Positions 47,790 through 49,795 of a stretch of 64,000 nucleotides of DNA are shown in pieces. A program made the position numbers and the translations under genes. The stretch comes from Octopus vulgaris. Its lineage: Eukaryota. The stretch spans positions 199,702,001 through 199,766,000 of the forward strand of contig OX597815.1 of the NCBI GenBank assembly GCA_951406725.2, given 5' to 3'. A model generated the notes under the pieces. It was not told the DNA's origin, ran no database searches, and worked only from the letters and a program-made list of their open reading frames with translations. Each line of letters begins with the position of its first letter. Position 1 is the stretch's first letter.

Positions 47790-48240
47790 TGCAATTATCC
47801 ATGCTGGAACATCACCTTGTAGGATTGGTCGAACACATCGTCCCCCACTACTTATTTTAAAGTCTAGTGCTTAATTTATCATCCCTTTTGTCGAACCATA
47901 ATGTTACGGAGACGTAAACAAACTAACACCAGTTGCCAAACGCTGGGAGGACAAACACAGACACGCACAAACAATTCTACATACATAGATACTTAGATAC
48001 ATGCATGCAAATATACATACATATAGTTATGCATGTATGTACACACACACACACACACACACACATACACACACACGATGGGCTTCTTACAGTTTCCGTC
48101 GACCAAATTACACTCTAGGCATTGGTCATCCCAATGCTATAGTAGAAGCTATTTGCCCAACTTGCTGTGCACTGGTACTGAACCGAAAACAATATGGTTC
48201 CGAAGCGAACTACTCTGCAACAGAGCCATGCCATCATACA
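47790..48240 (-). mobile_element. SINE family B, decayed
   Basis: Family homology. Confidence 0.75.
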
Positions 48241-48382
48241 TAATTTTTATAATATATGTATAAACACTGCTTGGCGTTAACATTCCTCGATCGGCTGATC
48301 TACCAGCGCAATTCAGTCAAGGTTGTTGAGTGAATTTTACGTAAAGCTATTGCTTTATATGTTTGTTCAGAGTTGCCTCTCC

Positions 48383-48441
48383 TAGGTACAGCTCATTGAC
48401 AAGAGCCAAGAAGCTTGAAACATCGATGTCTGGGATTCCTA
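48383..48441 (+). ncRNA. Full-length type I hammerhead ribozyme (Sm-alpha-like), U3-A8 core
   Basis: taggtacagctca-TTGACAA-gagc caagaa gctt-GAAA-catcgatg-TC-tgggattccta; GUC triplet, palindromic stem III, GGUACA/AUUCC internal loop. Confidence 0.8.
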
Positions 48442-48734
48442 ATAGATGGCGACACTGAACAAACCGGGTGATTCACACCTTTTTTTTACCAGAAGAGTGA
48501 TATTTCCTCCACGGTAAGTAACTGCAGTAAATTTTCATGTTAACGGTTGAAATGTCACAAACATATTCTAACGAACCTAAATTTTTCTTATGCCTAAACA
48601 CTGTTTAACGCTAACAATTAGGTATTCTATAATATATATGTATACAATTATTTCTATAAATTGAACCAAAGTTAAAAAGGAAATGTGCCGCAGCTCCTAA
48701 TTTACGCGGTGGTTTGACCATCTCGAAAGAGTTC

Positions 48735-48870
48735 AAACGCTGCTGAGGTCTATTTTAACTTTCATCCTTTCGGGGTTGACTGAATGAGTTACCTGTTGAA
48801 CACAGGGGTCGATGTAAAAGATTTACTCCTTCCCTGAAATTGCAGGCTTCGTGGCAAAATCTGAAAGCAA
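48735..48870 (+). mobile_element. SINE family A, decayed
   Basis: Family homology. Confidence 0.6.
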
Positions 48871-49795
48871 TAAAATACCAGTCAAATTTGTCACCCTGTG
48901 CTAAAGTAAAAAACTTGGTAATTTGGTTCAGACATTGGTACTTGAGCACAACGCTCTGAGAAATTACAACCGTGTTTCGTGGTCTGCTATCACAACTGCT
49001 CCTTTATAGGATCCAGTTAGCTCAATACATAATCAGGAGGAACCATGCCCGGTTTCGGCCCCTACTCCTCTACCGTTTTGACGTAGTGGAGCCCCACTTT
49101 CGGAGGGGTCTTCAGCTCTGGTGCTGGGTGCATGTCTTCTTTCTTCTGTTCCCTGGCCTCTTCGATGTAGCGTCAACGAGTGTCAGCCGGCGACTGACTG
49201 AAGTCCAAATTTATATCTTTAATTATAACTGGTTTGTTTTGAAATGTCTTTAATTTATTTTCGAAAATTACTTTTTAGTAAGTTATTTTTATATTAAATA
49301 CTCATCCCATTCCTGTTTAGCATGCTATATGTTGGGTGGACTGTTGGCTATATTTATTAGACAAAAAAATAAGTGACCATTTAAAAAAATAGTTACACTA
49401 TAAAAATGAAATGCGATATAAATACGATCTAGAAATACATTGAATGGAAATATTTTTACAATTTGAGTTGCATAGCAACATAACATTTTCTAGATATTAA
49501 TGGCTATAATAGTTAGTAATAGTAATATATTTAAACACTGACCACATGTTTAAGGGGGGAATTTTTCTGCTTGCTATATCATTTGTTAACATTTTTTTTT
49601 TGGTTAATAATGGGTTAAATATTTCTTCCGATTTCGAAACGAAATGGGAAGAATGTAACCATACTTGTCGATGATATTCTTGTTGTGGTTTACTGGTTTA
49701 TTGTTTATACACATGTCAAACCCTCTTCAGCAAACCTATGCTCAAAGGCATTTCACCCGTAAACAGCCTATCTTTCTCTATATTTATATCTATCT

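What the first reader, a model, noticed from the sequence alone, without database searches (positions are those of the whole stretch)
48383..48441. Sm-alpha-type full hammerhead with a compensatory U3-A8 catalytic core
Seen: AGGUACAGCUCA-UUGACAA-GAGC CAAGAA GCUU-GAAA-CAUCGAUG-UC-UGGGAUUCCUA. It has the GGUACA/AUUCC internal loop in stem I and a 6-nt CAA..A loop 2 like the Schistosoma Sm-alpha ribozyme (recalled, not aligned by software). It also has a GUC triplet (cleavage after 48430) and a perfect 10-nt palindrome ACAUCGAUGU in stem III that would allow dimeric folding. The core reads U3..A8 instead of C3..G8. Established: positions 3 and 8 form a Watson-Crick pair and compensatory variants retain activity. 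A plain CUGANGA search would miss it. Caveat: G8>A is also the expected CpG decay, so the compensation may be chance.
Basis: partly seen in the sequence, partly recalled or inferred. Interest (0 to 1): 0.75.

Follow-up and report, generated by a model that had tools for sequence, protein, structure and literature searches.

The report
Variant-core hammerhead in an old retrozyme
This is one ageing copy of a scattered, roughly 330-letter repeat that likely spread as a jumping RNA and carries a predicted self-cutting hammerhead motif; its swapped core base pair is the norm for the whole repeat family and is already published, so it is a new example of a known kind.

Summary
The motif is real (48383-48441, +), but it is not a one-off. 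It sits in a 372-nt insertion (48255-48626, about 1.1 units) of a dispersed non-coding repeat with 324-355-nt units (829 genome candidates). U3-A8 is inherited: 77 of 100 listed family matches have it and none has C3-G8. In the window's subfamily 0 of 20 copies keep G8, while 108 of 164 CpGs survive, so decay after insertion is excluded. Stems covary within the family and across sister families, two of which hold both C3-G8 and U3-A8. Partial tandems, inverted pairs, clustered 3' ends next to microsatellites and a strongly folding circle fit a non-LTR retrozyme mobilised by Penelope-like elements (inferred). This copy has a near-private G48391 that breaks helix I, so it is probably impaired. 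U3-A8 is published (Perreault 2011; Cervera and De la Pena 2014), and this scan found U3-A8 retrozymes before on other DNA of this genome. Cleavage and expression are untested. What remains of interest: subfamilies appear to have amplified with U3·G8 and U3-C4-A8 cores.

The parts
48255..48626 (+). Retrozyme-like insertion, about 1.1 circularly permuted units (period 334 in this copy)
   Evidence: 83.7% identical to the family majority circle, positions 155 to 192 one turn later; family loci
48248..48257 (+). Candidate target-site duplication, left copy (TATAATATAT); low complexity, so weak
   Evidence: Sequence; overlaps the aligned 5' edge by 3 nt
48628..48637 (+). Candidate target-site duplication, right copy
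   Evidence: Sequence
48383..48395 (+). Helix I 5' strand with GUAC internal-loop strand (48386-48389); G48391 is a near-private mismatch
   Evidence: loop compared with Dufour 2009 passages
48396..48402 (+). Core strand U3-U4-G5-A6-C7-A8-A9
48403..48416 (+). Stem II (4 bp) with loop 2 CAAGAA
   Evidence: Pair 48406/48413 covaries C-G versus U-A within the family, Fisher p 4e-13 (copies are related, so not an independent test)
48417..48430 (+). G12-A13-A14-A15.1, palindromic stem III, U16.1-C17; predicted cleavage after 48430
48431..48441 (+). Helix I 3' strand; U48437 is the predicted loop-1 U that contacts the 3' A of loop 2
   Evidence: T in 91 of 91 copies; role inferred
48362..48463 (+). 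Predicted long rod that extends helix I and encloses the ribozyme
   Evidence: Fold of 48294-48627, z -3.8

Best explanation
The motif is the type I hammerhead of one old copy of a dispersed, protein-free repeat with ~330-nt units, likely a non-LTR retrozyme, and its U3-A8 core is shared by the family rather than new in this copy. Shown: the family, unit length, tandem and inverted layouts, family-wide U3-A8 and helix covariation. Inferred mechanism: tandem source loci were transcribed; hammerheads, probably paired as dimers through the 10-nt palindrome, cut after GUC; unit-length RNAs were ligated into self-paired circles; a Penelope-like RT/GIY-YIG enzyme primed about 120-210 nt downstream of the cut site at AT-rich or microsatellite targets and copied round the template, which gives more-than-unit and inverted insertions. 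U3-A8 keeps the 3-8 Watson-Crick pair, so source copies likely cleaved. This copy has drifted (8.6% from its subfamily), has a broken helix I pair and is probably a weak or silent relic.
For: 829 candidates, 52 matches among the 40 scored. 77 U3-A8, 14 U3·G8, 5 C3·A8, 0 C3-G8 and 4 other among 100 listed of 108 (counted by hand). Window subfamily (21 rows, support 100/97): G8 in 0 of 20 with a letter, CpG kept 108 of 164. Tandem periods 324-355 in 8 of 73 loci and inverted pairs in 18 of 73. 3' ends 120-209 nt after the cut in 93 of 126 segments against 35 of 126 for 5' ends; 36 of 126 longer than one unit; simple repeat follows the 3' end in 63 of 126 against 12% at random places. Majority circle z -10.4. 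On 11 hand-picked motifs of three families, 95.5% of cells pair and 9 of 14 pairs change on both sides. No in-line PLE ORF at family loci; a young RT/GIY-YIG element is abundant in the genome.
Against: No cleavage or circle was observed. Rfam support is weak (E 0.57). The predicted lowest-energy fold buries the core in this copy and in the majority circle. Only 25 of 91 copies keep an intact U3-A8 core and 10 of those have all helices paired. 50 of 73 loci hold a single hammerhead and no long array was seen. No sequence link between this family and the young PLE was found, so the carrier is inferred from insertion anatomy only. Within this family alone positions 3 and 8 do not covary (p 0.34), because C3-G8 is absent.
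Confidence: 0.8

Rival explanations
1. The units are truncated pseudo-LTR ends of an autonomous Penelope-like element, not a separate non-autonomous retrozyme.
For: Inverted and partial-tandem layouts and microsatellite targets are PLE traits. In sister family D one copy (L045) lies just downstream of a decayed PLE ORF in the same orientation.
Against: In 8 loci and in the window the sequence runs from one unit straight into the next at about 330-nt period. tblastn of a PLE protein over the fetched loci found no in-line ORF at this family's copies.
Confidence: 0.1
2. The ribozyme was already losing function in the source elements, and the family spread without needing efficient self-cleavage.
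For: Subfamilies appear to have amplified with U3·G8 and with U3-C4-A8 cores. C4 is in 28 of 100 listed matches. 3' ends do not map to the cut site. Li et al. saw cleavage in only 1 of 9 Xenopus retrozyme dimers.
Against: Helices I and II are fully rewritten with pairing kept across families that share the core. U3-A8 is reported active in vitro, and U4C is tolerated in a viroid.
Confidence: 0.15
3. U3 and A8 arose by chance in this copy (A8 by CpG decay), so the compensation is accidental.
For: Position 7-8 would be a CpG if G8, and a U3·G8 subfamily exists, so deamination in an ancestral source element is not excluded.
Against: 0 of 20 G8 in the window's subfamily against 66% CpG retention (binomial p 5e-10). 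Sister families with T or A at position 7 also have A8.
Confidence: 0.02
4. This particular copy has been co-opted as a functional host ribozyme.
For: Its core is intact and its hammerhead fold energy ranks 12th against 75 other copies. Contigs from runs with three other organism labels cross its left junction.
Against: Its divergence is ordinary for the subfamily (8.6% against a median 8.5%). G48391 breaks helix I and is absent from run X5, so it arose after insertion.
Confidence: 0.03

Closest known systems
Metazoan non-LTR retrozymes (Cervera and de la Pena 2020, PMC7229834, parts 2-3 of 6 read; Li et al. bioRxiv 10.64898/2026.07.22.740005, parts 1-3 of 5 read)
   Same: 150-450-bp non-coding units with a type I hammerhead, GC under 50%, self-paired predicted circle, larger target duplications, co-occurrence with PLEs; mussel units are 350-390 bp.
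   Different: Core is U3-A8 rather than C3-G8; copies are mostly dispersed monomers, partial tandems and inverted pairs, with no long arrays seen; old (6-9% divergence); circles and cleavage not shown.
U3-A8 minimal hammerheads of Schistosoma Cercyon PLEs (Cervera and De la Pena 2014, PMC4209133, parts 1-2 of 4 read)
   Same: Same core covariation (about 1,300 hits there), dispersed single motifs; opposite-strand pairs 100-700 bp apart are described there for min-HHRs.
   Different: Those are minimal motifs with long helix II and poorly defined loop 1; this one has canonical 6-bp helix I, 4-bp helix II and the tertiary-contact loops.
Schistosoma mansoni canonical type I hammerhead (as described in Dufour et al. 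2009, PMC2632901, passages read)
   Same: Internal loop 1 with a GUAC strand and a 5' U, hexaloop 2 with a C:A opposition and 3' A.
   Different: U3-A8 core; loop 2 CAAGAA instead of CAAAUA; G·A mismatch in helix I of this copy; no shared flanks tested.
Natural U3-A8 hammerheads of Perreault et al. 2011 (PMC3088659, section 8 and passages read)
   Same: First natural report of C3-G8 to U3-A8 covariation; states that such pairs were already shown active in vitro.
   Different: Several scattered examples there; here the variant is the norm in several repeat families of one animal genome.

Membership tests
Type I hammerhead ribozyme | Three helices round the core, stem I open | tested here: met
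   this copy has one mismatch in helix I
Type I hammerhead ribozyme | Canonical CUGANGA core strand | tested here: not met
   UUGACAA; the published U3-A8 variant keeps the 3-8 pair
Type I hammerhead ribozyme | GAAA and NUH cleavage triplet | tested here: met
   48417-48420 and GUC 48428-48430
Type I hammerhead ribozyme | Loop 1 / loop 2 tertiary-contact nucleotides | tested here: met
   By sequence only, against passages of PMC2632901; U48437 in 91 of 91 copies
Type I hammerhead ribozyme | Rfam hammerhead model at gathering score | tested here: not met
   0 hits; HH9 13.6 bits against a cut-off of 52
Type I hammerhead ribozyme | Self-cleavage | not testable with these tools
   Needs in vitro transcription
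Non-LTR retrozyme | 150-450-bp unit with a type I hammerhead, found in tandem | tested here: met
   Periods 324-355 in 8 of 73 loci; partial tandems only
Non-LTR retrozyme | No coding capacity | tested here: met
   No in-line ORF or PLE protein match at family copies
Non-LTR retrozyme | GC under 50% and highly self-paired predicted circle | tested here: met
   GC 38%; 69% paired, z -10.4; window unit as a circle z -5.0
Non-LTR retrozyme | Target-site duplication longer than 4 bp | tested here: inconclusive
   10-bp AT-rich candidate in this copy only
Non-LTR retrozyme | Expressed as circular RNA | tested here: inconclusive
   Only contigs of guessed-RNA runs were available
Autonomous Penelope-like element | RT plus GIY-YIG ORF flanked by this repeat | tested here: not met
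   the genome was sampled, not annotated in full
PLE-type insertion | Fixed 3' ends, variable 5' ends, inverted copies, microsatellite targets | tested here: met

The most novel reading that the evidence does not exclude
In this genome U3-A8 is the majority core of full, tertiary-stabilised type I hammerheads across a radiation of retrozymes (338 against 137 C3-G8 in one fixed pattern frame), the pair has flipped inside at least two element lineages, and source elements amplified with U3·G8 and U3-C4-A8 cores. That is a natural mutational series of the catalytic core. If the U3-C4-A8 subfamily, the least diverged one here, barely cleaves, then retrozymes can spread without efficient self-cleavage.
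Probability: 0.25. Interest if true: 0.55.

Novelty: new member of a known kind. Interest (0 to 1): 0.27.

Why it matters
Searches that require CUGANGA, and Rfam at its cut-offs, miss these families, so animal retrozyme counts are probably too low. The subfamilies give ready-made natural variants (U3-A8, U3·G8, U3-C4-A8, C3-G8 in sister families) to ask how much cleavage a retrozyme needs in order to spread. The single copy in the window matters little.

Tried and rejected
Expression: no RNA holder was listed; family pieces lie in contigs of four guessed-RNA runs, which shows neither level, strand nor circles, so it is not used as evidence. Idea that U3 was favoured because it lets the core pair with the stem III palindrome as an off switch: rejected, freeing the core costs 3.8 kcal/mol with U3-A8 and 3.6 with C3-G8 in this family, and the reverse holds in family C. 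The first majority circle had a junction error; it was rebuilt and the dimer energy is discarded, so dimeric folding is supported only by the palindrome duplex (-12.9 kcal/mol). The 'outer' pairs were partly out of register and are not used. Lower mismatch at core sites (4.3% against 6.6%) is confounded because loci were picked with core-containing patterns. The pair at C7:55431273/55433947 is not a full PLE. The order C3-G8, U3·G8, U3-A8 cannot be read from the unrooted, weakly resolved tree. Primary kinetic papers on the 3-8 pair (Przybilski and Hammann 2007; Nelson and Uhlenbeck 2008) were not held, so activity rests on Perreault's statement. No supplements were read; they may list cephalopod or U3-A8 canonical examples. 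No tRNA in the window.

Full report
Observation. The quoted sequence is present on the + strand: U3 48396, A8 48401, stem II 48403-48416, GAAA 48417-48420, perfect palindrome 48420-48429, C17 48430. The pattern occurs once in the window and in 0 of 100 shuffles. Rfam gives nothing at gathering score or in a 901-nt scan, and a weak Hammerhead_HH9 alignment on 106 nt (E 0.57). The window is G000:C2:199702001-199766000 of a 2.8-Gb genome.

It is a repeat copy. A DNA search gave 829 candidates and 52 matches among the 40 scored, mostly at 81-90% identity. Sequence downstream of the motif recurs upstream of it, so the element is a circularly permuted unit. Among 73 family loci, 8 hold tandem hammerheads 324-355 nt apart, 18 hold an inverted pair within 900 nt and 50 hold one motif; some loci were picked because they showed pairs, so these shares are not genome-wide rates. 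The window copy spans 48255-48626, about 1.1 units, with a weak 10-bp AT-rich target-duplication candidate. Of 126 segments, 93 have 3' ends 120-209 nt after the predicted cut, against 35 for 5' ends; 36 exceed one unit; 63 are followed by a simple repeat against 12% of random places. The majority circle (329 nt) folds at -112.9 kcal/mol, z -10.4. These traits match the insertion anatomy described for Penelope-like elements (passages of PMC8557442) and the definition of non-LTR retrozymes (PMC7229834). A young PLE with RT (PF00078) and a GIY-YIG-like C-terminus (my reading of the translation) has 18,247 candidates in the genome, and its copies also end at (TA)n. No PLE ORF lies in line with this family's fetched copies. 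Mobilisation by a PLE is therefore inferred; Li et al. argue the same for vertebrate retrozymes.

The core. With positions 3, 4, 7 and 8 left free, 100 listed of 108 matches were 77 U3-A8, 14 U3·G8, 5 C3·A8, 0 C3-G8 and 4 other; 28 had C4 (hand count). On a tree built without the core columns, the window copy falls in a 21-row group (100/97) with G8 in 0 of 20 scorable rows while 108 of 164 CpG cells survive. A8 therefore came from the source element and not from decay after insertion; deamination in an earlier source element remains possible. U3·G8 rows cluster (6 changes against 11.3 shuffled, 0 of 500) and U3-C4-A8 rows less so (10 against 13.0, 11 of 500). A 14-row group with majority UCGACAA is the least diverged (6.4%), and three TCAA copies fit C4-G5 having been a CpG in its template. 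I enriched the fetched set for G8, C3 and C4 copies, 16 of 91 copies were too short for the tree, and the bootstrap had not settled.

Covariation. Within the family, stem II pair 48406/48413 switches between C-G and U-A (33 and 39 copies; 9 discordant) and helix I pair 48393/48433 among U-A, U·G and C-G. Other families share the core but not the flanks: family B keeps the same palindrome with different helices I and II and 331-348-nt periods; family C and others have 4- or 8-nt palindromes (62 hits, 0 in the reversed control). On 11 hand-picked motifs 95.5% of cells pair and 9 of 14 pairs change on both sides; slid controls give 24-50%. Two lineages hold both states: L045 (C3-G8) and L161 (U3-A8) are 75% identical over 211 nt, and L058 (C3-G8) shares only short flank matches with family C (E 4e-6), which is weaker. 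One fixed pattern frame gave 338 U3-A8, 137 C3-G8, 41 U3·G8 and 67 C3·A8, with controls of 0, 0, 2 and 2 (odds ratio 17). The frame was drawn from U3-A8 families, copies are not independent, and some hits may be differently wired motifs, so this is not a genome-wide ratio.

This copy. G48391 faces A48435 in helix I; 88 of 91 other copies have T. Contigs of three other organism labels cross the left junction, and run X5 shows only T at that place, so the change came after insertion. The copy is 8.6% diverged from its subfamily, the median being 8.5%. Its lowest-energy fold pairs the core with the palindrome, and the core is also partly buried in the majority circle (4.7 kcal/mol to free). That fits the published idea that monomers are off and dimers on, but it is not specific to U3.

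Known work. Perreault 2011 first reported natural U3-A8 and says such pairs are active in vitro. Cervera and De la Pena 2014 found about 1,300 U3-A8 minimal hammerheads in Schistosoma. Dufour 2009 gives the Schistosoma loop nucleotides that this motif matches by sequence. My eight searches listed no paper devoted to U3-A8 in full-length animal retrozyme hammerheads or to octopus retrozymes; supplements and subscription papers were not seen. Earlier notes of this scan report U3-A8 retrozymes of 358-364 nt in the same genome; a sequence look-up found no look-alike of this family.

Verdict. Real motif, correct anatomy, genuine compensatory pair, but a known variant in a new family of a known kind, and this copy is probably impaired. 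Interest 0.27.

Noticed in passing
L062-L081, about 140 nt after the ORF stop (G000 PLE copies): The young, abundant PLE carries a hammerhead-like motif with UUGAAGA (U3·G8), a 2-bp stem II, an ACCGGU palindrome and an apparent extra U before the core, about 165 nt from its 3' end.
   Followed up: partly
L045 (G000:C5:4961281-4964314, minus strand): A C3-G8 copy of sister family D lies about 300 nt downstream of a decayed PLE ORF piece in the same orientation; possible parent pseudo-LTR or chance neighbour.
   Followed up: partly
L085-L104, L126, L127; L145-L164: Further U3-A8 hammerhead families with different helices; family B has 331-348-nt periods, and family C copies are 83-92% alike, so it looks younger.
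   Followed up: partly
window 55198-55049 (-): Remnant matching the C-terminal endonuclease region of the PLE protein (44% over 50 aa, E 1.5e-6).
   Followed up: no
window 49115 (-), within about 49050-49200: A CUGAAGA...GAAA core-like string in a GC-richer stretch with one match among the fetched loci; stem II does not pair in the type I order.
   Followed up: no
window 48639: Contigs of runs X2, X3 and X5 hold 31 extra letters here that the window lacks.
   Followed up: no
window 48043-48232 and 48729-48800: Other interspersed repeats flank the insertion; both recur in many fetched loci.
   Followed up: no
G000:C1:67330736-67353850: Four near-identical hammerhead-frame matches within 23 kb, three C3-G8 and one U3·G8.
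   Followed up: no
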